This document shows, one piece after another, positions 5,784-57,821 of a DNA stretch of 64,000 bases. A model generated the notes under the pieces. It was not told the DNA's origin. It saw only the letters and a list, made by a program, of their open reading frames with translations, and searched no databases. The position numbers were made by a program, and so were the translations under genes. Source of the DNA: Candidatus Paceibacter sp. (lineage in GTDB: Bacteria; Patescibacteriota; Patescibacteriia; S139-126); NCBI GenBank assembly GCA_020724865.1, contig DYGA01000001.1:89438-153437 (forward strand), in the 5' to 3' direction. The stretch's first letter is position 1. Every line of letters starts with the position of its first letter.

Positions 5784-7325
5784 TTATTGAGCGGATTCCA
5801 TAATTTTTATTGGTCCACCCCAATCATTTGCCGACAATAAATCTTTAGCTAGTGGTACAACTACTGCTTTTTTATAAACATCAACTTCGGCTGGTTTGTC
5901 TAAAATCGGAAATATCAAAGCCGGAATATATAGCTCATCACCTTCAGAAGCCCCTGGTTTAAAATTCCACATTCTAATATAAGAAATTATAGGCGTACCC
6001 AAACCAACTTCCACCCGATTAGGAGCATCTTCCCACTGCCAACTGTAAAGTCCTCCTCGTTCGGCATACTTTAAAATGGTATCAACGTTGGTTTCCGCAT
6101 CATACAGAGAACTTTGGTAATTCTGAGCAAATAGATTCCATACACCAGTTGCTTTTTTATACCTAATATTTACATTGACATAAAGACCGGTTTTATTACC
6201 ACTCTCATCATATACTTCTTTACCTTGTAAAATTTGTGGATAAACTACTGAAACCACTTCAGGAATATAAACATCTTGTTTATTTTCTGCTCGTTCATAC
6301 CAAACTCGCCAATCATTATTTACTATCGGTTCACCATAAGAACTGGTATTAATTCCATAATTACTAATAAACTCATTAGCTAAAGCAATAATCTCTTCAT
6401 CTGAAAGCATATCATTGATACTTAACTGAAAACTTCGATAACAAGCGTCATCCTGACACTGACTCATCGGATTTGGCCACTTAGGATAATTTTCTGACAC
6501 CGAGATACTGCTATCATATAAATTAGCATAAATGGAATAACCAAATTCACGATCTTCAACAAAATTTAAATTTTGTAATTGAATATTGGTAAATTTACCA
6601 AGATCCATTAGACCAAAATCAACTCCAGTAAGTAAAGAACCTAACTGACTAGCACTAGCAGAATTTTTTACTCTTTTTAATACTCCAACTTTATCTTGAT
6701 TTAATTCTAAAGGTTCGCCTTTATAAACATAAGATATATAAACTGGCGCAGGCATAATCATTCCGCCACCGCCAAAACCAGGCTCAACTGAAGTGGCTAC
6801 TTTGTCTCCGGTCGCCACTGCTTCGGGAACTGTTTCTGACCTAACAGCTAAACTGCCTTCACCCATTCCTCCAGCCCCTAAACCTTCAACCCCAGCTGGT
6901 AATCCAGTATTTTGTGGCTGTAAAACCCCGAAGGCTCGATCAGAAACTTCTACCAAATTAAATTGTGAATTCAATGCTAATTTAGTTCCAGCCACACGAA
7001 ATTTAGGAGAAGTTAAATAAAAACTTGAACTAATAGCTAAGGCCATTACAGCTACGCCGACTGCTACGTAAGAGAAACTACGAGCAAATTTAAGAAAAGA
7101 AAATTTAAACATATATTTATCATTTAATTTTTTAGTATTTTTAATAGTATTTGCTTTTGCCAACAATTGAACTTTTAATTGCTGACGAAAACTTTCATCA
7201 AGCGAAACATCTGGTTTAGATTTAATTAATTCTTCCATAAGATTTATTAATTGCTTTTCATATTTTTTTAAATCCGGATCATTTTGATAAAGCTCGGTCA
7301 ATATTTCTTGATAAAAATTTTCCAT
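5784..7325 (-). CDS. Membrane protein co-transcribed with the ECF sigma factor; putative anti-sigma factor with a large extracytoplasmic domain
   Basis: Its start lies 2 nt after the sigma gene stop. It has an ~80-aa cytoplasmic N-terminus, a single TM (FARSFSYVAVGVAVMALAISSSFYL) and a ~400-aa external domain. The anti-sigma role is inferred from synteny only. Confidence 0.4.
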   Translation of the reverse strand: MENFYQEILTELYQNDPDLKKYEKQLINLMEELIKSKPDVSLDESFRQQLKVQLLAKANTIKNTKKLNDKYMFKFSFLKFARSFSYVAVGVAVMALAISSSFYLTSPKFRVAGTKLALNSQFNLVEVSDRAFGVLQPQNTGLPAGVEGLGAGGMGEGSLAVRSETVPEAVATGDKVATSVEPGFGGGGMIMPAPVYISYVYKGEPLELNQDKVGVLKRVKNSASASQLGSLLTGVDFGLMDLGKFTNIQLQNLNFVEDREFGYSIYANLYDSSISVSENYPKWPNPMSQCQDDACYRSFQLSINDMLSDEEIIALANEFISNYGINTSSYGEPIVNNDWRVWYERAENKQDVYIPEVVSVVYPQILQGKEVYDESGNKTGLYVNVNIRYKKATGVWNLFAQNYQSSLYDAETNVDTILKYAERGGLYSWQWEDAPNRVEVGLGTPIISYIRMWNFKPGASEGDELYIPALIFPILDKPAEVDVYKKAVVVPLAKDLLSANDWGGPIKIMESAQ

Positions 7326-16307: not shown

Positions 16308-17837
16308 CTATCTTGCGTATTCAATTACTCTATTTTCTCTAATGGCAGTTACCTTGATTTCACCAGGGTATTTTAATTCCGCTTCAATACGATCGGCTAT
16401 ATCACGAGCAATTTTTTTCATTTGATAATCATCTACTTCTTCAGGTTTAACAAAAACACGAATTTCCCGACCGGCTTGAATGGCATAAGTTTTTTCAATA
16501 CCTGGAAAATTATTAGCTACTGCTTCCAATTCTTCTAAACGTTGCAAATAATTTTCGTAAGTATCTTTTCTAGCTCCAGGTCTAGCTCCAGAAATTGCAT
16601 CGGCTACTTTTACTATCACACCTTCTAAAGTTTTGGGACTATCTTCATGGTGAGCAATAGCAATATAAGCTACCTCCTCAGGTAAGCCAAATTTTTTCAT
16701 AATATCATAGCCAATATCAGTATGAGCTCCTTGGACCTCATGGTCAACTGCCTTGCCAATATCATGTAATAAACCACCCTTTTTACAGACAGCAACATTG
16801 GCCCCCAACTCCTCAGCTAACATACCGGATAAAAAGGCAACTTCCATAGAGTGACGTAAAACATTTTGACCATAAGAAGTGCGATACTTTAAACGACCTA
16901 AAATTTGTAATAATTTTGGATCAAGTCCAGCCACTCCAACTTCATAAGCAGCTTCTTCTCCAGCTTTTTTTATATCTAAAGCCAACTCTTTTTTAGCCTG
17001 TTCTACGGTTTCTTCAATTCTACCTGGATGAATACGTCCATCTGATATTAATTTATCTAGAGCTCTTTTAGCCAAATGTCTTCTAATTGGAGAAAAACCA
17101 GATACTAAAATGACTCCTGGAGTATCATCAACAATAATTTCCACCCCGCACAAATTTTCAATTGCTTTAATATTTCTGCCTTCCCGACCGATTATTCTGC
17201 CTTTCATTTCATCATTGGGCAAGGTAACTGAAGTAGTGGTTGTTTCCGCAGCATGCGAAGAAGCGCATCTTTGTAAAACTAAACTAATTAAATTTTTAGC
17301 TTTTTGTTCTAATTCTTCTTCGCCAATTCTTTCCAACTTCAACATTCTTTCATACAAAACATCTTTTTGTCGTTTTTCGACATTATCCAATAAGACTTTT
17401 TTGGCTTCCTCTTGAGTAAGCTTAGCTACTTTTTCTAACTTTTCTAACTGTTGTTCACGCAGTTTGTCAATTTCTTCTTCTTTTTTCGTTAGCTGTTGTT
17501 CTTTTTCACGTAAACGTTGTTGACGATTCTCAAGTTCCAATATTTTTTTATCAAAAATCTCTTCTCGTTTTTCCAAACGAATCTGTAAATGTTGGATCTC
17601 ACGACGTCTTTCCGTTTCTTCTTTTTTCGCTTCATCAATAATCGCTATAGCTTTGTCTTTAGCAGCCAGTAAAATTTCTTTTTCTTTATTTTTAGCAGTA
17701 ATGATTATTTTCTCAGCTTTTCTTTCGGCAGAATTAACTGCTTGTTTGGACCAAATTTTTCTGACAAAATAACCACCAACTAAACCAATAATAGCGGCGA
17801 TGCTAGCGCCGATTAAAAACTCTAAAGTTACTTCCAT
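16308..17837 (-). CDS. rny: Ribonuclease Y
   Basis: N-terminal TM, a long coiled coil, a KH domain (GRIIGREGRNIKAIE) and an HD domain (LLHDIGKAVDHEVQGAH). Confidence 0.9.
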   Translation of the reverse strand: MEVTLEFLIGASIAAIIGLVGGYFVRKIWSKQAVNSAERKAEKIIITAKNKEKEILLAAKDKAIAIIDEAKKEETERRREIQHLQIRLEKREEIFDKKILELENRQQRLREKEQQLTKKEEEIDKLREQQLEKLEKVAKLTQEEAKKVLLDNVEKRQKDVLYERMLKLERIGEEELEQKAKNLISLVLQRCASSHAAETTTTSVTLPNDEMKGRIIGREGRNIKAIENLCGVEIIVDDTPGVILVSGFSPIRRHLAKRALDKLISDGRIHPGRIEETVEQAKKELALDIKKAGEEAAYEVGVAGLDPKLLQILGRLKYRTSYGQNVLRHSMEVAFLSGMLAEELGANVAVCKKGGLLHDIGKAVDHEVQGAHTDIGYDIMKKFGLPEEVAYIAIAHHEDSPKTLEGVIVKVADAISGARPGARKDTYENYLQRLEELEAVANNFPGIEKTYAIQAGREIRVFVKPEEVDDYQMKKIARDIADRIEAELKYPGEIKVTAIRENRVIEYAR

Positions 17838-28920: not shown

Positions 28921-29032
28921 AGTTCCCGCGCCGACCTACTTTCCCCAGATGAGTATCATCGGCGCTGATAGGCTTAACTTCCGTGTTCGGAATGAGAACG
29001 GGTGTGGCCCTATCGCTGTAGGCACGGGAACT
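28921..29032 (-). rRNA. rrf: 5S rRNA
   Basis: Minus-sense agttcccgtgcctacagcgatagggccacacccgttctcattccgaacacggaagttaagcct…ggcgcgggaact. Helix I closes the ends. Confidence 0.9.
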
Positions 29033-29079: not shown

Positions 29080-32234
<3,155 letters not shown>

Positions 32235-32554
32235 TATTGGCTAATCTTGTGTCAGTAAAAACTGCATTGACTTACTTCAAACTTAGATTAATTTTTAATT
32301 TGCAATCGTTGCTCGTCACAAAAAATTTCTTTACAATAAAATTTTTTCTAACGACCAATTTGTTTATTTTTTTTCAGAGAAACAAAAAACCGCTCTTTAC
32401 AAGCGGCTGGCAGTTTTTTAAGACAACTAAAAATACCTATCCGCTTGTTTTTTGGTTTAAGGTTAAAAGTATTTTCATATATTTCGTGCTTAAGCAGTAT
32501 ATATTATATTTATATTTTTGACAAGTAGTGGATGTGGAAAAACTATATATAAAT

Positions 32555-32796: not shown

Positions 32797-32883
32797 TGGT
32801 GCCGGAGAGAGGACTTGAACCTCCACGGGGTTACCCCCACCAGCTCCTAAGGCTGGCGTGTATGCCAATTTCACCACTCCGGC
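32797..32883 (-). tRNA. tRNA-Leu (anticodon TAG), long variable arm
   Basis: Minus-sense gccggag-tg-gtga-…-ccagc-ctTAGga-gctgg-tgggggtaaccccgtg-gaggttcaagtcctc-tctccggc-a-cca. Confidence 0.85.
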
Positions 32884-32985
32884 AAAATATTAACTAGCAA
32901 TTATAGTGTAAAAGAAAAGCTGTTGTCAAACAAGTTAAATTTTTATAAAATAATTAGAGAAAATAATAATTTATTTAAACTTATG

Positions 32986-35565
32986 AGCCAAGAGGAGAGA
33001 CTCAAAGTTGTTGGTATTATCATGGTTTTAATTATGACCATGATTTTTATTTTACCAACAATTAGTCAAGCTAATAACAATCAAATCCAACCCGGCGATA
33101 TAATTATCACAGAAATTATGATCAATCCCAAGGCTGTTAGTGATACGGCCGGTGAGTGGTTGGAAATTTACAATTCAACCGAAAATGATATTGACTTATC
33201 AGAATGTGAATTTACTGACAATGGTAGTAATAAATTTATTATATCGCAACTGATAGTGCTGGCGGAATCTTATTCGGTGTTAGCGCGTAATGGCAATGCA
33301 AACGAAAATGGTGGTTTGACACCTGATTATATTTATACCAGTTATACCTTAACCAACACAGAAGATGTTATTATTCTAACTTGCCAAGGAACAGAAATTG
33401 ATCGTGTTGAATACAGTACAGTACTGGGTTTTACTATCCCTGATGGAGCTTCAATAATCTTAAAAGATTTAACTCTTGATAACAACGTTGGCGCCAATTG
33501 GTGCGCATCGGATAATATTTTTGGTGCGGGCGACAAAGGTACGCCGCAAACAGATAACGGCACTTGCGCCGAAACCATCACCCCCAATCCATCGCCGCTA
33601 ATTACCACTAACCGACCGCCAATAGCAGAAGCTGGGTCAAACAAAACCGTTGTTGTTGGCCAAACCGTGCAATTTGATGGTAGTAATTCTTATGATCCGG
33701 ATAATGATACGCTTAAATATAATTGGGATTTTGGTGATGGCAACAAAGCTACCGGGAAAACAACTACTCATATTTATCAACAAGCAAATATTTATTTGGT
33801 CACTCTGACGGTTGATGATGGTAAAATCTCTCAATCTGATTCACTTTCTGTCACTGTTAACAAACCGCAAATCAATAACTACCAAAATAAACTTATTATT
33901 TCCGAGCTTATGCCCAATCCCGAGGGGTCAGATGAAGATGAATGGATTGAACTTTATAATCAAAGCTCTGAACCAATAGATTTATTGGGTTTATATATAA
34001 TTGATGCCAGTAATAAAAAATATACATTTAACACTGATGATTTTGCTTCAATGGTGATTCCTGCTAATAGCTACTTTTTACTTCCGCGCGCGATCTCTAA
34101 AATAAATTTAAATAATACTCCTCCAGAAACCGTTGCTATTGTTTCACTAAATAATGAAACTATAAATGAAGTAACTTATTTTGACTCTGCTAAAGAAGGT
34201 TGGAGTTTAATTTTTTTTGCTGATGAATATCAATGGACCAATACTCCTACCCCCGGTTATGCCAATCAATTAAATTTATCAAGCGAAGATTCAAATATTA
34301 ATCAGGATGAAATTAATGATGAGGATAATACTAATGAAGAATTATTAAGTTTCAATCAAAATTGCCAATCAGCTAAAAACAATCAAATAATTTTAAATGA
34401 ACTTTTACCTTCACCTCAAGGTGATGACCGGATATTTGAATTTATTGAAATAAAAAATGTTTCCACTCTTCCTGCAAACTTGTGTGGTTGGAGCGTGAGC
34501 GATCTGACAAGACAATATTTTTTTCCAGACAATGTTATTATACCACCTTTAGGATTTTATCTAGTTGAACCAATTACATCTCATATCAGTCTAAACAACA
34601 ATGGCGATCAAATCAGTTTATATAATAGTAATGATGAGCTGGTAGATTTTACTAGTTATGGTAAAGCGGGTATTGATCAATCATGGGCACGAGCTTCGGA
34701 TAAAAGCTGGTTATGGACAAAAAATATTTCGCCGAACGAAGAAAATATTTTTTCGGAAAATACAAATGTTACCAATGAAATAATTAATTCTTCATTAACC
34801 AATAATACCAACGAATATGTTTATTTGCCTTTAGAAGAGATAAACCAAACTCAAGTTAATGATAAAGTAATTGTTACCGGAATAATTACGGCTGAACCAG
34901 GTCGGTTAGGATCGCAAATAATGTATATTATGAATGTAAATGGTTTACAAATATATCAACATTTTAAACGTTGGCCCGCAGGACTAACTGTGGGCGATCG
35001 GGTAGAAATAAAAGGTATTATGTCTTTTCCCTCTGGCCTACCACGTTTAAAAGTTCAAACAACTGACGATATATATGTTTTAGAAAAAAACCAATTTGCT
35101 AAACTAGTATTACCAATTGTTACCACCGACGAATTAACTGAAGAACTAATTGGCTCACTCATAACCATAGTCGGCACGATAGTAGAAATAAAAAAAGGCA
35201 GTTTAATGCTGGCTGACGATCAAGGTGAAATTAATTTAGTGATTAAACCTTCCACAGAAATTAATTTGCCGCCAATCAAAGAGGGTGATATAATTGAGGT
35301 AATTGGTATACTTGATAAAACAACGGCGGGCTGGAGGTTGCTTCCGCGATTCAATACGGATTTAAAAATTATTGAGGTAAAAAGTTTTACAACTTCTTCA
35401 CCAATTTTAGAAAATGACCAAAAAAATTTAAAAAATAATTTTAGCAATAAATTAATTAACTACTTATATATTACTTTACTGGCTGTTATAATTATGCTCA
35501 GCCGATTAATTTACAAATTAAAAAAACAACAATATGGATACACCAACAACCAAAAAGTTAACTGA
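32986..35565 (+). CDS. Cell-surface protein with three lamin-tail domains (LTD), one PKD domain, an OB-like region and a C-terminal TM anchor. The start is assigned to the internal Met preceding the signal peptide.
   Basis: LTD signatures IIITEIMINPK…GEWLEIYN, LIISELMPNPEGSDEDEWIELYN, IILNELLPSPQGDD…FIEIKN. PKD VQFDGSNSYDPDNDTLKYNWDFGDG. Signal peptide MSQEERLKVVGIIMVLIMTMIFILPTISQA and the C-terminal hydrophobic LYITLLAVIIMLS. Confidence 0.75.
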   Translation, partial: SQEERLKVVGIIMVLIMTMIFILPTISQANNNQIQPGDIIITEIMINPKAVSDTAGEWLEIYNSTENDIDLSECEFTDNGSNKFIISQLIVLAESYSVLARNGNANENGGLTPDYIYTSYTLTNTEDVIILTCQGTEIDRVEYSTVLGFTIPDGASIILKDLTLDNNVGANWCASDNIFGAGDKGTPQTDNGTCAETITPNPSPLITTNRPPIAEAGSNKTVVVGQTVQFDGSNSYDPDNDTLKYNWDFGDGNKATGKTTTHIYQQANIYLVTLTVDDGKISQSDSLSVTVNKPQINNYQNKLIISELMPNPEGSDEDEWIELYNQSSEPIDLLGLYIIDASNKKYTFNTDDFASMVIPANSYFLLPRAISKINLNNTPPETVAIVSLNNETINEVTYFDSAKEGWSLIFFADEYQWTNTPTPGYANQLNLSSEDSNINQDEINDEDNTNEELLSFNQNCQSAKNNQIILNELLPSPQGDDRIFEFIEIKNVSTLPANLCGWSVSDLTRQYFFPDNVIIPPLGFYLVEPITSHISLNNNGDQISLYNSNDELVDFTSYGKAGIDQSWARASDKSWLWTKNISPNEENIFSENTNVTNEIINSSLTNNTNEYVYLPLEEINQTQVNDKVIVTGIITAEPGRLGSQIMYIMNVNGLQIYQHFKRWPAGLTVGDRVEIKGIMSFPSGLPRLKVQTTDDIYVLEKNQFAKLVLPIVTTDELTEELIGSLITIVGTIVEIKKGSLMLADDQGEINLVIKPSTEINLPPIKEGDIIEVIGILDKTTAGWRLLPRFNTDLKIIEVKSFTTSSPILENDQKNLKNNFSNKLINYLYITLLAVIIMLSRLIYKLKKQQYGYTNNQKVN

Positions 35566-46885: not shown

Positions 46886-48370
<1,485 letters not shown>

Positions 48371-48416
48371 AGTGAGAATTGATTGATCTCAAAATATGAG
48401 ATCTGACTCTCAAAAG

Positions 48417-48450
48417 AAATGACTTAATGTTTCTCTACACTTTTTAGTTG
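48417..48450 (-). promoter_or_regulatory. 16S 5' leader processing-stem arm (pairs with 46750-46782)
   Basis: See the complementarity described for 46750-46782. Confidence 0.65.
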
Positions 48451-48631
48451 TCAAAATGCATTTTCTAATCTGTGATTTAAGACTAGAAAAAACAGAGACA
48501 CTTAAAATTGTTTAAGTATCACTGTTTTTTCTCGTCCTGATTTGGACAATACAATATCAAATTTTAAAATTTACTATGCTTGGGGAATTAACTTAATTGT
48601 TAGCGAAAATATCTAAAATAATCGCTTTATA

Positions 48632-54881: not shown

Positions 54882-55622
54882 TTATGAATTCATTTTATTT
54901 AACGCTTCTTGAGCAGCGGCAACCTGAGCTTCTTGTTTGCTGTGACCCTGACCTTTAGCTATTAATTCACCATCAACAAATACGCCGATTTCAAACAACT
55001 TATTGTGATCGGGTCCTTCTTCTTTTAAAACTTTATATTGTGGTGTTACTCCTTTTTTTTCTTGAATCAGTTCTTGAAAACGAGTCTTGGGATCAATATA
55101 TAAATCGTTAGCCAAAATGTAATCTAATTTACTAATTATATAATTTTTGACAAATTTAGCTGCCTGTTCATAACCTCGATCCAAATAAATTGCTCCTATA
55201 ATTGCTTCAATAGCGTTGGCCAAAATAAAGTTTCTGGCCTTGCCACTTTTATCTTTTGCTTCGCCTTTAGACAAATATAAATATTTTTCTAATTGTATTT
55301 CTTTAGCCACTTCAGCGCAACGCGTAGCATTTACTAAACTAGCCCGCCAATTTGTCAATTCGCCTTCAGGGTTATCAAAATGATGATACAAATAATCAGT
55401 CACTACTAATTCCAAAACCGCATCGCCCAAAAATTCTAAACGTTCATTGTGAGGTAAATGAAATTTAGGATGCTCATTAAGATAAGAGCGGTGGACTAAA
55501 GCTTGTCGCAGTAAATCTTGATTGATAAATTTTATACCAATTATTCTTTCCAAAGAGTCAAGTTCGCGCATAATCTTTTGACCAGATTGATTGGTAAATA
55601 TTTCTCCCAATGGGAGACGCAT
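54882..55622 (-). CDS. rnc: Ribonuclease III
   Basis: ERLEFLGDAVLELVVTDYLY catalytic signature and a C-terminal dsRBD. Confidence 0.9.
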   Translation of the reverse strand: MRLPLGEIFTNQSGQKIMRELDSLERIIGIKFINQDLLRQALVHRSYLNEHPKFHLPHNERLEFLGDAVLELVVTDYLYHHFDNPEGELTNWRASLVNATRCAEVAKEIQLEKYLYLSKGEAKDKSGKARNFILANAIEAIIGAIYLDRGYEQAAKFVKNYIISKLDYILANDLYIDPKTRFQELIQEKKGVTPQYKVLKEEGPDHNKLFEIGVFVDGELIAKGQGHSKQEAQVAAAQEALNKMNS

Positions 55623-55637
55623 TTACCAAGCAAAGGG

Positions 55638-56516
55638 CTAAGTATTAATAATTATATTTTTTGCTTTTTGCCATAATTCTTTAGCCTGATCATAGCCTAA
55701 TATATCAGCCACCTCATCATAATCATACCATTTTGCGTCTTTCATTTCACCTACATTCTGAGCTGGTGATAATTCGCTATCTTTAGCTTCAATTAAATAC
55801 ATGTAAACTGTTTTAGGATAGGGTTGAATATTGGGCTCTCTTACCACCAATTCCAATTCTCCGATTTTTTCACCAACAATCAAATCTTTCAATCCTAACT
55901 CTTCACCAATTTCTCTTTTCACTGCTGCAATTGGATCCTCATTGGGTTTAATTCTGCCCTTGGAAAAGGTCCACCGACCGTGACCATCTAATATCAAAGC
56001 TACCTTTATACTGCCATCTTCAAAACGGCGCCAAACGATTCCTCCAGCAGAAAACTGGCGCTCTCCTAAAACCGGTTGATCCATACCTTGTTTTTCGCCT
56101 TTTTCTTGCATGACTTTATAAATAGAGCCTAACACACCATTAACAAACTTACCTGAAGAATCTCCTCCAAAACTTTTTGCCAATTCAATTGACTCGTTGA
56201 TGGCGACTTTGGGCGGAATATTTGGAGAAAATTTAAGTTCATAAATTCCTAACCGTAAAACATTTCTATCAATACCAGTTATTTGATCTAAAGGCCATTC
56301 CGGAGCATAACTTACTATTAATTTATCAATTTCAGCTAGTTTTTCTACTGTTCCGTATAATAAATTTCTCGCAAATCCTTGATCATCAAAATCAGGAGCA
56401 AATTCTTTAAAATTATAATCCAATATCTGATCCAATCTTCCTTTGGGCATGCCATGAAAATCCCATTCAAATAATGATTGTAAGGCTAAGGTACGAGCTA
56501 GATGACGATTGGACAT
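55638..56516 (-). CDS. nusB: Fusion protein: N-terminal NusB transcription antitermination factor plus C-terminal NUDIX hydrolase domain
   Basis: NusB: RHLARTLALQSLFEWDF, GIDRNVLRLGIYELKF, VAINESIELAKSFGGDSSGKFVNGVLGSIYK. NUDIX box: GRIKPNEDPIAAVKREIGEELGL fits GX5EX7REUXEEXGU exactly. Confidence 0.8.
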   Translation of the reverse strand: MSNRHLARTLALQSLFEWDFHGMPKGRLDQILDYNFKEFAPDFDDQGFARNLLYGTVEKLAEIDKLIVSYAPEWPLDQITGIDRNVLRLGIYELKFSPNIPPKVAINESIELAKSFGGDSSGKFVNGVLGSIYKVMQEKGEKQGMDQPVLGERQFSAGGIVWRRFEDGSIKVALILDGHGRWTFSKGRIKPNEDPIAAVKREIGEELGLKDLIVGEKIGELELVVREPNIQPYPKTVYMYLIEAKDSELSPAQNVGEMKDAKWYDYDEVADILGYDQAKELWQKAKNIIINT

Positions 56517-56521
56517 AACTT

Positions 56522-56728
56522 TTAAATTTTGGCTTTACTATTTTTTTTCGGAAAAGAGATTTTAATAATCTCCTTCCCCTTATAAAATCCACAATTTTTA
56601 CATACTCGATGAGGACGTACTGGATTACCACAATTTGGACATTTACCTAATTGTAAGTTTGACTTTCCCTGCTGGGATCGTCTCCGACGGCCTTTACTTC
56701 GAGACAGTCTTTTTGCTGGAACACTCAT
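56522..56728 (-). CDS. rpmF: 50S ribosomal protein L32 (zinc-ribbon type)
   Basis: MSVPAKRLSRSKGRRRRSQQ… and CPNCGNPVRPHRVCKNCGFY. Confidence 0.8.
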   Translation of the reverse strand: MSVPAKRLSRSKGRRRRSQQGKSNLQLGKCPNCGNPVRPHRVCKNCGFYKGKEIIKISFPKKNSKAKI

Positions 56729-56790
56729 AATTTTTTTATTAATTAAAACTATTCAATAACATACCAGAAAAATACCTTTTTTGTCAAAAA

Positions 56791-56834: not shown

Positions 56835-57821
56835 CTATTTATTAATTTTTTTCTTTTCCTGCCAATACCATAAATATAACAAAACCGTAGCCACTCCCAA
56901 TATAAATAAACCTGTATAACGATTTCTGCTTTCCCGTTCTTGATTTTGTTCGGTAACTATTGTATCTTGATTTGTCTCACTAATACTAGAAACTTCTTCA
57001 CTAGTAGATTCTAACACTTTGGCTTTTAAATTATCGCTGCCAGTTTGAGTTAAGATTTCAACTTGAGCATCGGATTTTTCTTCAACAATCTTAACCGTAC
57101 CGGAAGCTGGTTGATCAATTACTTGATTTGTAACCGTGTTTAAACTATCATCACTATCTTCAATTTCGCCTTTGGTTATTTTTTGTTGTTCTGTTTTAAA
57201 ATTTATAATTTCACTTTTTTTACTAGGTTTTCCGCTTGCATCATAAGCCACCGCATATACCTCATGAACTCCATTCAATAAATTTCTGGCTTTGAACCAA
57301 AAATTAGTTGTTCCTGAAGGATGGTTAGGAACAGCAAAATCAGCCGCTAAATTTCCGTCAATATATATTTTTACCACCGAATCGTTTTTGATTAAACCCT
57401 TAATTAAAATATAATCAGTAAAATCTTCTGGGGCAAATAAAGTTGGGGCCGGCGTGGGTGGACTGACTTTATAACCAATAATACCTCCTAAATCAGAAAA
57501 TTCATTATTATATTTTCCTCTTACTCTAAACTCATGCCACCCTAAAGGCAAATCTTCTTGTGGAGACCAACCAAAACTGGCCGTTCCTGAACTGTCTTTA
57601 ACCACTTTGGCAAAACCTTGGGAAACTTCGTCCATAAAAACTTCTACCTCAACTTCATTGGGCGTCCAACCAATAACCCAAGGTCGATAAGAATTATCTG
57701 CTGAGTGCACGACATTATAAATTTGCGGGATAGGAACTTTAGCCTGCGCAATCTGTGCTGAAAAAACTAAAAACAAAAATAATGGTAAAACTAAATAAAA
57801 ACTAAAAAAATATTTCTTCAT
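56835..57821 (-). CDS. Secreted/cell-surface protein with a signal peptide and a C-terminal TM anchor, hypothetical
   Basis: Signal MKKYFFSFYLVLPLFLFLVFSAQIAQA, a beta-rich middle, a Ser/Thr/Glu-rich linker and C-terminal LFILGVATVLLYLWYW. Confidence 0.5.
   Translation of the reverse strand: MKKYFFSFYLVLPLFLFLVFSAQIAQAKVPIPQIYNVVHSADNSYRPWVIGWTPNEVEVEVFMDEVSQGFAKVVKDSSGTASFGWSPQEDLPLGWHEFRVRGKYNNEFSDLGGIIGYKVSPPTPAPTLFAPEDFTDYILIKGLIKNDSVVKIYIDGNLAADFAVPNHPSGTTNFWFKARNLLNGVHEVYAVAYDASGKPSKKSEIINFKTEQQKITKGEIEDSDDSLNTVTNQVIDQPASGTVKIVEEKSDAQVEILTQTGSDNLKAKVLESTSEEVSSISETNQDTIVTEQNQERESRNRYTGLFILGVATVLLYLWYWQEKKKINK

What the first reader, a model, noticed from the sequence alone, without database searches (positions are those of the whole stretch)
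55638..56516. NusB fused to a NUDIX hydrolase domain
The N-terminal 140 aa are canonical NusB and the C-terminal 150 aa carry a perfect NUDIX box (GX5EX7REUXEEXGU), joined in one frame with no stop or frameshift. NusB binds boxA RNA in rRNA antitermination complexes. A NUDIX partner (RppH-like RNA 5'-pyrophosphohydrolase or nucleotide-sanitising enzyme) fused to it would tether a hydrolase to nascent rRNA or transcripts. The gene sits between rnc (RNase III) and rpmF.
Basis: partly seen in the sequence, partly recalled or inferred. Interest (0 to 1): 0.6.

Follow-up and report, generated by a model that had tools for sequence, protein, structure and literature searches.

The report
NusB fused to a NUDIX domain
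This candidate-phyla (Patescibacteria) bacterium makes its rRNA transcription factor NusB as one protein with an intact NUDIX hydrolase of the kind that strips triphosphates and caps from RNA 5' ends; the fusion is real, shared by hundreds of related genomes, and apparently unstudied.

Summary
ORF 55638-56516 (minus strand, 292 aa) is one uninterrupted gene. It encodes a full NusB domain (TIGR01951 129 bits, cutoff 88), an ~18-aa low-confidence linker, and a NUDIX domain (Pfam 52 bits, cutoff 21) with an exact Nudix box.

It is not an assembly artefact. All 240 listed homologues from independent assemblies carry both domains, in the conserved order rpmF-nusB::NUDIX-rnc. Named examples are Komeilibacteria, Nomurabacteria and Paceibacterota.

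The NUDIX half belongs to the Ap4A-hydrolase clade. Its best match is Aquifex aq_158 (TM 0.90), recently shown to convert ppp-, Ap4-, NAD- and m7G-capped RNA ends to 5'-monophosphate. It is not MutT or RppH by profile.

Across the wider fusion family, pocket residues (W182, T183, K186, W263, Y275) are at least 95% conserved, but catalytic residues are often lost (E202 kept in only 58%). In this window's own clade the box is intact in 120 of 120 sequences.

Best reading: a working NusB that tethers a 5'-end/ApnA-binding hydrolase to boxA-bearing nascent rRNA. This is inferred, not shown. No publication describing the fusion was found. It is a new variant of known kinds, of moderate to high interest.

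The parts
55638..56516 (-). Complete nusB::NUDIX ORF (292 aa plus stop)
   Evidence: 99%-identical protein P0001 called as one gene in GCA_037440425.1
56103..56516 (-). NusB domain, residues 1-138 (seven helices)
   Evidence: Pfam NusB 125 bits and TIGR01951 129 bits. AF2 helices H2-138. Foldseek T. maritima NusB 1tzv, TMt 0.84, 40% id. The boxA-contact residues G90/E93/F124 correspond to Aquifex G78/E81/F122 (PMC3177189) and are 95-100% conserved.
56058..56102 (-). Inter-domain linker, residues 139-153 (...EKGEKQGMDQPVLGE...)
   Evidence: Block 141-150 has mean pLDDT 64, against >90 on both sides; pTM 0.54. G140/E141 are nearly invariant in the close clade. Linker length across the family is 9-43 residues.
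55641..56057 (-). NUDIX-fold domain, residues 154-292, Ap4A-hydrolase/aq_158 type
   Evidence: Pfam NUDIX 52.3 bits. phmmer against PDB: 3i7u 1.4e-13, NUDT2 3.6e-6. Foldseek 3i7u_A: TMt 0.90, rmsd 1.6, 34% id.
55890..55958 (-). Nudix box G187-L209, GRIKPNEDPIAAVKREIGEELGL (catalytic R201, E202, E205, E206)
   Evidence: Exact match to GX5EX7REUXEEXGU. R201/E202/E205/E206 are present in 120 of 120 close homologues. E206 corresponds to aq_158 E51, and E51A is inactive (PMC13145063).
56522..56728 (-). rpmF (ribosomal protein L32), first gene of the apparent operon, 5 nt upstream of nusB
   Evidence: the same order is seen in L004, L008, L010, L012-L015
54882..55622 (-). rnc (RNase III), 15 nt downstream of the fusion
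   Evidence: rnc follows nusB in every related locus examined
56758..56787 (-). Best sigma-70-like promoter match (TTGACA-18-TATGTT, TG extended) upstream of rpmF; candidate operon promoter
   Evidence: consensus match only. No terminator-like site on the minus strand between rpmF and smc.
48448..48460 (-). Candidate boxA (TGCATTTTGACAA) in the 16S leader, the presumed RNA target of the NusB half
   Evidence: 10/13 match to E. coli TGCTCTTTAACAA. A relative has TGTTTTTTAACAA at the aligned position, downstream of a conserved hairpin. Weak on its own: 29 hits of this quality in the window.

Best explanation
The gene encodes the organism's NusB, the boxA-RNA and S10-binding subunit of the rRNA antitermination complex. 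NusB is joined through an ~18-residue, low-confidence (probably flexible) linker to a catalytically intact NUDIX domain of the Ap4A-hydrolase/aq_158/NUDT2 type. The gene is co-transcribed with rpmF and rnc.

Proposed mechanism: the NusB half docks on boxA in the leader of nascent pre-rRNA. This keeps the NUDIX pocket, which recognises a nucleotide carrying a 5'-oligophosphate, next to the transcript's 5' end. In this lineage the domain then hydrolyses the 5'-triphosphate or a nucleotide-derived cap (Np4, NAD and similar) to a 5'-monophosphate. That would couple antitermination to 5'-end-dependent processing and turnover of the leader by RNase III and 5'-P-sensitive nucleases such as RNase Y.

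Shown: the architecture, domain identities, conservation, synteny, an intact catalytic box and fold-level kinship.

Inferred: NusB function, hydrolase activity, and above all that the substrate is the RNA 5' end rather than free ApnA.
For: Architecture and reality.

NusB function retained: TIGR01951 above its cutoff. RNA-contact residues G90, E93 and F124 and the N-terminal MSNRHLAR are 95-100% conserved. This is the only NusB in the 64 kb window. A candidate boxA lies in the 16S leader.

NUDIX competent here: exact box, and R201/E202/E205/E206 invariant in 120 of 120 homologues down to 52% identity.

Substrate class: best sequence and structure match is aq_158, which deprotects ppp-, pp-, m7Gp3-, Ap4-, NAD-, FAD- and sugar-capped RNA to 5'-P (PMC13145063). 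NUDT2 trims PPP-RNA (PMC8616924).

Tethering: low-confidence linker and pTM 0.54.

RNA-processing context: invariant adjacency to rnc and an RNase Y gene in the window.

Precedent for a NusB-fold domain targeting an rRNA-directed enzyme: the N-terminal domain of RsmB (RsmB models match residues 29-145).
Against: There is no biochemical evidence.

The candidate boxA lies ~170 nt from the predicted transcription start, so closeness to the 5' end depends on how the RNA folds.

The NUDIX half is acidic (pI 5.0, against 9.2 for aq_158), so it has no obvious RNA-backbone surface. NUDT2 has a similar pI of 5.2.

In ~40% of the wider family the Glu equivalent to E202 is replaced, and about half lack a full REx2EE. 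Catalysis is therefore dispensable in many lineages.

rpmF-nusB-rnc synteny also holds where NusB has no NUDIX (L004), so the rnc linkage is not specific to the fusion.

aq_158's RNA activity is an in vitro result, and its physiological role is unknown.
Confidence: 0.4

Rival explanations
1. The NUDIX fold is mainly a non-catalytic module of the Patescibacteria antitermination complex. It would be a ligand-, RNA-end- or protein-binding accessory, comparable to the moonlighting enzyme SuhB in the E. coli rRNA complex. Hydrolysis in this clade would then be ancestral residue or secondary.
For: Across 199 fusions, the residues at least 95% conserved in the NUDIX half are G158, D177, W182, T183, K186, W263 and Y275. 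None are the catalytic residues: R201 is 75%, E202 58% and E205 79% conserved. There are 104 degenerate and 95 intact sequences, with at least 30 state changes on a rough NJ tree. A Pfam-NUDIX-negative member (P0181) still models as an aq_158-like fold (TMt 0.85), with a helical linker and higher pTM of 0.73, which suggests fixed packing. SuhB is a precedent for an enzyme fold in the rRNA complex (PMC6614801, listed; that its catalysis is dispensable is from my own knowledge).
Against: In the window's clade all four catalytic residues plus G187 are invariant in 120 of 120 sequences over about 50% sequence divergence. That is hard to explain without selection for catalysis. The conserved residues line the nucleotide and phosphate pocket of Ap4A hydrolases (alignment to NUDT2 and aq_158), which points to ligand binding rather than a protein interface.
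Confidence: 0.28
2. The NUDIX half is a housekeeping or alarmone-linked dinucleoside-polyphosphate (Ap4A/ApnA) hydrolase or sensor acting on free nucleotides. It is fused to NusB for co-expression in a minimal genome, or to tie rRNA transcription to ApnA levels, and does not act on RNA ends.
For: All close solved relatives are annotated ApnA hydrolases: aq_158, NUDT2, C. elegans Ap4A hydrolase, CT771, Ndx1 (Ap6A), and Rv2985/MutT1. The WTF(P/S)KG-x-E motif is shared with NUDT2 (HWTPPKGHVE). The domain is acidic like NUDT2.
Against: A fusion kept for co-expression alone would not be expected to persist across hundreds of lineages with a conserved linker motif, nor to survive loss of catalysis in about half of them. 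Two enzymes of this clade (aq_158 and NUDT2) that were tested on RNA ends act on them.
Confidence: 0.2
3. The NUDIX half is a MutT-like sanitiser that removes 8-oxo-GTP at the transcription complex to protect rRNA fidelity.
For: There is a weak match to the mycobacterial MutT1 N-terminal Nudix domain: NF052459 at 31-33 bits, and Foldseek 5gg5/6m6y.
Against: MutT and MutT1 equivalog scores fall far below their cutoffs (17.6 against 97.9; 33 against 475). The M. tuberculosis homologue of MutT1, Rv2985, is titled a Nudix diadenosine polyphosphatase in PDB entry 9cxx. A close relative has a separate MutT-like NUDIX gene.
Confidence: 0.05
4. The fusion is an assembly or frameshift artefact joining two separate genes.
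For: None found.
Against: The same single ORF appears in 240 listed cluster representatives from NCBI, JGI, ENA and Logan assemblies, on contigs up to 963 kb. At least 51 clusters at 50% identity are fusions. No split nusB plus NUDIX gene pair was seen in any locus examined.
Confidence: 0.01

Closest known systems
NusB (TIGR01951 / PF01029), boxA-binding subunit of the NusB-NusE antitermination module
   Same: Residues 1-138 are a full NusB: above the equivalog cutoff, seven-helix fold (TMt 0.84 to T. maritima NusB), and conserved boxA-contact residues G90/E93/F124.
   Different: Canonical NusB is a single ~140-aa domain. This one carries an extra linker and a 139-aa NUDIX domain at the C-terminus of helix alpha7.
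Aquifex aeolicus aq_158, Ap4A hydrolase / 'Omnivore RNA pyrophosphatase' (PDB 3I7U/3I7V; PMC13145063)
   Same: Closest sequence match (E 1.4e-13, 33-34% id) and closest structure match (TMt 0.88-0.90, rmsd 1.6-2.1). Shares the SAGG, W-x-F-P/S-K-G and PKTV motifs and the C-terminal aromatic residue.
   Different: aq_158 is a free-standing, basic protein (pI 9.2) from a thermophile. The domain here is acidic (pI 5.0) and fused to NusB. Its activity has not been tested.
Human NUDT2 (asymmetric Ap4A hydrolase; PPP-RNA trimming enzyme, PMC8616924)
   Same: Same NUDIX subclade (E 3.6e-6, TMt 0.72-0.75). The motif HWTPPKGHVEPGE aligns with RWTFSKGRIKPNE. Both are acidic. NUDT2 acts on the RNA 5'-triphosphate.
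   Different: NUDT2 is eukaryotic and stand-alone, with no RNA-targeting domain.
E. coli RppH (with its partner DapF)
   Same: A NUDIX enzyme that converts 5'-ppp/pp and Np4 caps to 5'-P. A partner protein modulates it, which is functionally analogous to what is proposed here.
   Different: It belongs to a different NUDIX subfamily (TMt 0.61-0.66, 16-18% id). RppH equivalog models score 19-21 bits against cutoffs of 116-139.
RsmB/Sun 16S rRNA m5C967 methyltransferase
   Same: A NusB-fold N-terminal domain fused to an enzyme that acts on rRNA. RsmB models match residues 29-145. This is a precedent for the NusB fold serving as an RNA-targeting module.
   Different: The catalytic partner is a SAM methyltransferase, not a NUDIX. 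The RsmB N-domain is not the cell's NusB, whereas here the fusion appears to be the only NusB (only the 64-kb window was checked).
Dcp2 mRNA-decapping enzyme
   Same: An all-helical N-terminal regulatory domain, a hinge, and a NUDIX catalytic domain acting on RNA 5' caps. Foldseek aligns about 250 columns.
   Different: The rmsd is 13-16 Å and identity 12-17%. This is architectural analogy only, and the helical domains are unrelated.
SuhB in the E. coli rRNA antitermination complex (PMC6614801)
   Same: An enzyme fold recruited as an accessory subunit of the NusB-containing rRNA transcription complex. This parallels the frequent loss of catalytic residues in fused NUDIX domains.
   Different: SuhB is an inositol monophosphatase fold, a separate polypeptide, and binds NusA and RNAP. 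No homology.

Membership tests
NusB (transcription antitermination factor) | Scores above the curated equivalog/profile threshold | tested here: met
   TIGR01951 129.2 bits against cutoff 88.35; PF01029 125 bits against 23.1. NF001223, another nusB equivalog, scores 87.3, below its cutoff of 131.
NusB (transcription antitermination factor) | All-alpha seven-helix NusB fold | tested here: met
   AF2 model has helices 2-138 with pLDDT >90. Foldseek 1tzv: TMt 0.84, rmsd 1.7, 40% id.
NusB (transcription antitermination factor) | Conserved boxA-contacting residues (Aquifex G78, E81, F122; N-terminus) | tested here: met
   The equivalents G90, E93 and F124 are 95%, 100% and 100% conserved. The N-terminal R4 and R8 are 98-99% conserved.
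NusB (transcription antitermination factor) | Binds boxA RNA with S10 (NusE) and supports antitermination | not testable with these tools
   Only a candidate boxA in the 16S leader was found.
NusB (transcription antitermination factor) | Single-domain protein of ~130-160 aa | tested here: not met
   292 aa with an extra NUDIX domain. Plain NusB relatives are 101-190 aa.
NUDIX hydrolase superfamily (PF00293) | Profile match above the gathering score | tested here: met
   52.3 bits against 21.1, E 7.4e-14.
NUDIX hydrolase superfamily (PF00293) | Nudix box GX5EX7REUXEEXGU with catalytic REx2EE | tested here: met
   G187-L209 is an exact match. REEE is invariant in 120 of 120 close homologues. It is NOT met in about half of the wider fusion family.
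NUDIX hydrolase superfamily (PF00293) | alpha/beta/alpha Nudix fold | tested here: met
   Strands 154-265 and helices 195-207 and 276-291. The top 25 Foldseek hits are all NUDIX structures.
NUDIX hydrolase superfamily (PF00293) | Mg2+-dependent pyrophosphohydrolase activity | not testable with these tools
   Needs an enzyme assay.
Ap4A/ApnA-hydrolase clade (aq_158, NUDT2, CT771, Ndx1) | Closest sequence and structural relatives are members of this clade | tested here: met
   phmmer: 3i7u 1.4e-13, NUDT2 3.6e-6, Ndx1 1.3e-3, CT771 2.4e-3. Foldseek ranks 1-25.
Ap4A/ApnA-hydrolase clade (aq_158, NUDT2, CT771, Ndx1) | W-x-(F/P)-P-K-G-x-x-E motif entering the Nudix box, plus a C-terminal aromatic residue | tested here: met
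   RWTFSKGRIKPNE aligns with aq_158 VWSFPKGNIEPGE and NUDT2 HWTPPKGHVEPGE. Y275 aligns with the aq_158 Tyr and a NUDT2 Phe. W182, K186 and Y275 are 98-99% conserved. That these residues contact the substrate is from my own knowledge of Ap4A-hydrolase structures and was not verified here.
Ap4A/ApnA-hydrolase clade (aq_158, NUDT2, CT771, Ndx1) | Hydrolyses ApnA and/or RNA 5' oligophosphate or cap | not testable with these tools
   Shown only for the homologues (PMC13145063, PMC8616924).
RppH (RNA pyrophosphohydrolase, NCBIfam PRK00714 models) | Equivalog profile above cutoff | tested here: not met
   19.2-21.5 bits against cutoffs of 116-259; only the Nudix box aligns.
MutT / MutT1 8-oxo-(d)GTP diphosphatase | Equivalog profile above cutoff | tested here: not met
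   TIGR00586 15.8-17.6 against 97.9; NF008044 17-19 against 148; NF052459 31-33 against 475.

The most novel reading that the evidence does not exclude
In Patescibacteria the NusB-NUDIX protein is an integral 5'-end reader of the rRNA transcription complex. The NUDIX pocket would capture the 5'-triphosphate or nucleotide-derived cap of the nascent leader while NusB holds boxA. This would clamp the transcript's 5' end to RNA polymerase, taking over the accessory role that SuhB plays in E. coli. Catalytically intact versions, such as this one, would then release the leader by deprotecting it for RNase III and RNase Y-dependent processing. Catalytically dead versions would simply hold or sense the end. 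If so, this would be a co-transcriptional 5'-end-status checkpoint for ribosome synthesis.
Probability: 0.15. Interest if true: 0.8.

Novelty: new variant of a known kind. Interest (0 to 1): 0.55.

Why it matters
NusB is a universal bacterial factor that is almost always a small single-domain protein, and RNA 5'-end deprotection is normally done by free enzymes. Linking the two covalently, across a major uncultivated radiation with minimal genomes, suggests that rRNA antitermination and 5'-end chemistry (triphosphate or non-canonical caps) are mechanistically connected.

The family also offers a natural experiment. Catalytically intact and catalytically dead versions sit on the same scaffold, which could separate binding from hydrolysis.

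The proposal is directly testable with one recombinant protein and boxA-containing RNAs. It bears on how Patescibacteria build ribosomes with a reduced factor set.

In practical terms, current annotation (PGAP and IMG name these proteins simply NusB) hides the second domain.

Tried and rejected
1. Assembly or frameshift artefact: rejected.
2. Canonical boxA search (GCTCTTTAACAA, up to 2 mismatches): 7 hits against 12.9 expected, none in an rRNA leader. Only a 3-mismatch candidate in the 16S leader, supported by one relative, was found. No convincing boxA was found in the 23S leader.
3. The genome-contig scan with the single protein returned only 6 loci, three of them labelled 'uncultured Gammaproteobacteria' MAGs (probably mislabelled), so it gave no taxonomic survey.
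4. Cluster-member names gave no taxonomy. Taxon names came only from the NCBI names.
5. The Foldseek search against AFDB50 was unavailable.
6. Literature: 'NusB + Nudix (+ fusion / Patescibacteria / CPR)' returned 36, 10 and 22 papers respectively, none describing this protein. The Nudix-clan survey PMC5389931 does not mention NusB.
7. RppH and MutT membership: tested and not met.
8. A general basic RNA-binding surface on the NUDIX half is not supported; its pI is 5.0.
9. Model coordinates cannot be downloaded. The orientation of the NUDIX pocket relative to the boxA site, and the 3D positions of the conserved residues, could therefore not be examined.
10. The count of at least 30 intact/degenerate switches comes from a quick NJ tree with midpoint rooting and strict REEE scoring (E-to-D counted as loss). 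Treat it as 'many', not as a number.
Full report

Yes. The window has a single ATG-initiated ORF at 55638..56516 on the minus strand. It is 292 aa with no internal stop.
- Pfam finds NusB at residues 7-134 (125 bits, gathering 23.1).
- Pfam finds NUDIX at residues 178-272 (52.3 bits, gathering 21.1).
- NCBIfam's nusB equivalog TIGR01951 scores 129.2 against a cutoff of 88.35.
- Residues 187-209 (GRIKPNEDPIAAVKREIGEELGL) fit GX5EX7REUXEEXGU at every specified position.

The neighbours are as stated and on the same strand. rpmF (56522..56728) ends 5 nt before the start codon. rnc (54882..55622) starts 15 nt after the stop. A DUF456 gene and smc follow.

The best promoter-like site on that strand lies just upstream of rpmF. 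No terminator-like site on the minus strand interrupts the run. The genes probably form one transcription unit, although this rests on consensus scans only.

**2. Is it an artefact?**

No.
- The 120 best hits among 5.8 billion proteins are all 269-304 aa, all carry PF01029 and PF00293, and span 52-99% identity. They come from NCBI, JGI, ENA and Logan assemblies, on contigs up to 963 kb.
- In the library clustered at 50% identity, 51 of the best 150 representatives match both halves, with whole-length identity to the query as low as ~29%.
- A profile built from the distant members retrieves another 120 two-domain proteins of ~300 aa.
- Source names place them in Patescibacteria: Candidatus Komeilibacteria for the query's side, and Candidatus Nomurabacteria and Paceibacterota for the distant side.

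The window itself fits such an organism. It has 33% G+C and unlinked 16S and 23S genes.

The order rpmF-nusB::NUDIX-rnc recurs in every locus examined (L007, L008, L010, L012, L013, L014, L015). L011 shows nusB::NUDIX-rnc, but no rpmF gene was called there. A MAG whose NusB has no NUDIX, only a 60-aa acidic tail, keeps the same order (L004).

The fusion is therefore an elaboration of a conserved NusB locus. It is not universal in the radiation. 71 of the 150 representatives are plain NusB, and others carry different tails after a shared GEPGK motif.

**3. The two halves**

AlphaFold2, run with a 44-sequence alignment, gives mean pLDDT 91.8 but pTM 0.54. The only weak stretch is residues ~141-150 (pLDDT 64). 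This indicates two well-defined domains on a probably flexible tether.

*NusB half*
- It superposes on T. maritima NusB (TMt 0.84, 40% identity).
- In the Aquifex NusB-NusE-BoxA structure, RNA recognition runs from the NusB N-terminus to G78, E81 and F122 (PMC3177189).
- The equivalents here, G90, E93 and F124, are 95-100% conserved across 199 fusion proteins. The N-terminal motif MSNRHLAR is conserved across the close clade, and R4 and R8 across the whole family.
- It is the only NusB-like ORF in the 64 kb window.
- I conclude that it is a working NusB. This is an inference from conservation.

*NUDIX half*
- It is closest to Aquifex aq_158, by phmmer (1.4e-13) and by Foldseek (TMt 0.88-0.90, rmsd 1.6-2.1, 33-34% identity).
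- Next come the Nudix domain of mycobacterial MutT1/Rv2985, human NUDT2, Chlamydia CT771, C. elegans Ap4A hydrolase and Thermus Ndx1 (Ap6A).
- RppH and Dcp2 are clearly more distant (TMt about 0.6).
- No NCBIfam equivalog for RppH, MutT, MutT1, NudE, NudI or others comes near its cutoff.
- It is therefore an Ap4A-hydrolase-type NUDIX without a curated family.

**4. What the relatives of the NUDIX half do**

aq_158 was long annotated as an Ap4A/Ap5A/Ap6A hydrolase. It has now been shown in vitro to convert triphosphate, diphosphate, m7Gp3, Ap4, NAD, FAD and sugar-capped RNA 5' ends to a monophosphate, and the E51A mutant is inactive (PMC13145063). aq_158 E51 aligns with E206 here.

NUDT2 trims viral PPP-RNA to P-RNA, which is then a substrate for XRN1 (PMC8616924). 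NUDT2 E58, the residue mutated in PDB entry 4ijx, aligns with E202.

These precedents make an RNA 5'-end substrate credible for this subclade. Free ApnA remains an equally classical substrate.

**5. The unexpected result: catalysis is optional in the family, the pocket is not**

In the query's clade (120 sequences at 52% identity or above), G187, R201, E202, E205 and E206 are all invariant.

In the Paceibacteria-type set, only 53 of 120 keep G-E-R-E-E-E. Common variants are K-R in place of R-E (21 sequences), E205K (9) and E202V/K/R. Meanwhile W182, T183, K186, G187, P228, K235, W263 and Y275 are 120 of 120.

Over a mixed sample of 199 fusions:
- The NUDIX-half positions at least 95% conserved are G158, D177, W182, T183, K186, W263 and Y275.
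- R201 is 75% conserved, E202 58%, E205 79% and E206 94%.
- 104 sequences lack a full REx2EE.
- The intact or degenerate state switches many times on a rough NJ tree. Individual sequences were checked by eye.

A member whose NUDIX half is invisible to Pfam (P0181) still models as an aq_158-like fold (TMt 0.85). Its linker is helical and its pTM is higher, at 0.73.

The conserved residues align with the strand and loop entering the Nudix box (WTFPKG) and with a C-terminal aromatic residue. In Ap4A hydrolases these bind the phosphates and stack on the base. That statement is from my own knowledge; only the alignment was tested.

The family-wide constraint is therefore on binding something nucleotide-like. 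Hydrolysis is kept under selection in some clades, including this one, and abandoned in others.

**6. Mechanism**

*Best-supported reading (confidence ~0.4).* NusB docks on boxA of nascent pre-rRNA and keeps a 5'-oligophosphate or cap-binding NUDIX pocket next to the transcript's 5' end. In this organism the domain hydrolyses that end to 5'-P.

Supporting context:
- The gene always precedes rnc.
- The window also encodes RNase Y. Its stimulation by 5'-monophosphate is from my own knowledge.
- The 16S leader has a strong promoter (TTGACA-17-TATTAT), a conserved hairpin and a boxA-like TGCATTTTGACAA. A relative has TGTTTTTTAACAA at the aligned position.
- RsmB gives a precedent for a NusB fold targeting an rRNA-directed enzyme.

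Weak points:
- The candidate boxA lies ~170 nt from the predicted transcription start.
- The NUDIX half is acidic (pI 5.0).
- Synteny with rnc does not depend on the NUDIX domain.
- Nothing has been assayed.

*Rivals.*
- A mainly non-catalytic accessory or ligand-binding module of the antitermination complex, analogous to SuhB (0.28). The degenerate half of the family favours it. The 120 of 120 conservation in this clade disfavours it for this protein.
- A free-ApnA hydrolase or sensor fused for co-expression or regulation (0.2).
- A MutT-like sanitiser (0.05). This is disfavoured by the profile scores and by a separate MutT-like NUDIX gene 8 kb away in a close relative.
- An assembly artefact (0.01).

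**7. Novelty and verdict**

Both domains are textbook families, and the two-domain proteins already sit in public databases, named simply 'NusB'. Full-text searches of 8 million papers found none describing the fusion. The Nudix-clan survey does not mention NusB.

I classify it as a new variant of known kinds: a lineage-wide NusB architecture with an Ap4A-hydrolase-type NUDIX domain. Interest is about 0.55.

The combination is surprising to a transcription or RNA-decay specialist, is widespread, and comes with a natural series of active and inactive versions. It is directly testable. The mechanism, however, remains inference, and domain fusions in reduced genomes are not rare.

Noticed in passing
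window 46887-48371 (-), 29084-32224 (-), 28923-29029 (-): The rRNA genes are unlinked. 16S and 23S-5S are separated by ~14.6 kb of protein-coding genes, each with its own strong sigma-70-like promoter. The 23S match spans 3141 nt against a 2925-nt model, so ~216 nt of extra sequence sits somewhere in the gene.
   Followed up: partly
window 48441-48452 (- strand) and 32422-32433 (+ strand): The exact 12-mer GACAACTAAAAA lies in the 16S leader, overlapping the candidate boxA. Its reverse complement lies in the 23S leader RNA, so the two separately transcribed leaders are complementary over 12 nt. There are 5 hits with up to 1 mismatch in the window, against 1.26 expected. This could be chance in AT-rich DNA or a trans pairing site.
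   Followed up: partly
window 16308-17837 (-): RNase Y gene (RNase_Y_N + KH + HD). A Gram-positive-type endonuclease is present in the same genome segment.
   Followed up: partly
L004 6001-6615; proteins P0139, P0151, P0153, P0169, P0174, P0175, P0185, P0194: Patescibacteria NusB proteins without NUDIX often carry other C-terminal extensions after a shared GEPGK motif. These include acidic or K-rich low-complexity tails and ~200-aa K/E/N-rich tails. The C-terminus of NusB seems to be a hotspot for add-ons in this radiation.
   Followed up: partly
L013 1406-1828: A close relative (fusion protein 85% identical) encodes a separate 140-aa MutT-like NUDIX ~8 kb upstream of nusB. It is only 29% identical to the fused domain over 72 residues. 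The corresponding region lies just beyond this window's end.
   Followed up: yes
window 56835-57821 (-): A 328-aa protein with an N-terminal signal-like segment and a C-terminal hydrophobic anchor. It has no Pfam hit on record for its counterparts in relatives (L007, L013, L014) and is conserved immediately upstream of rpmF in those loci.
   Followed up: no
window 32923-35565 (+): An 880-aa protein with three Lamin-tail domains, a PKD domain and a weak OB-fold match. It diverges from the promoter of a tRNA gene (32800-32883, -) that lies upstream of the 23S promoter.
   Followed up: no
window 5784-7325 (-): A 513-aa ORF with no Pfam match at E<=1e-5.
   Followed up: no
L001-L003 record titles: Three GTDB representative MAGs carrying near-identical fusion genes are titled 'uncultured Gammaproteobacteria bacterium'. 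Their gene content and homologues point to Patescibacteria, so the record labels are probably wrong.
   Followed up: no
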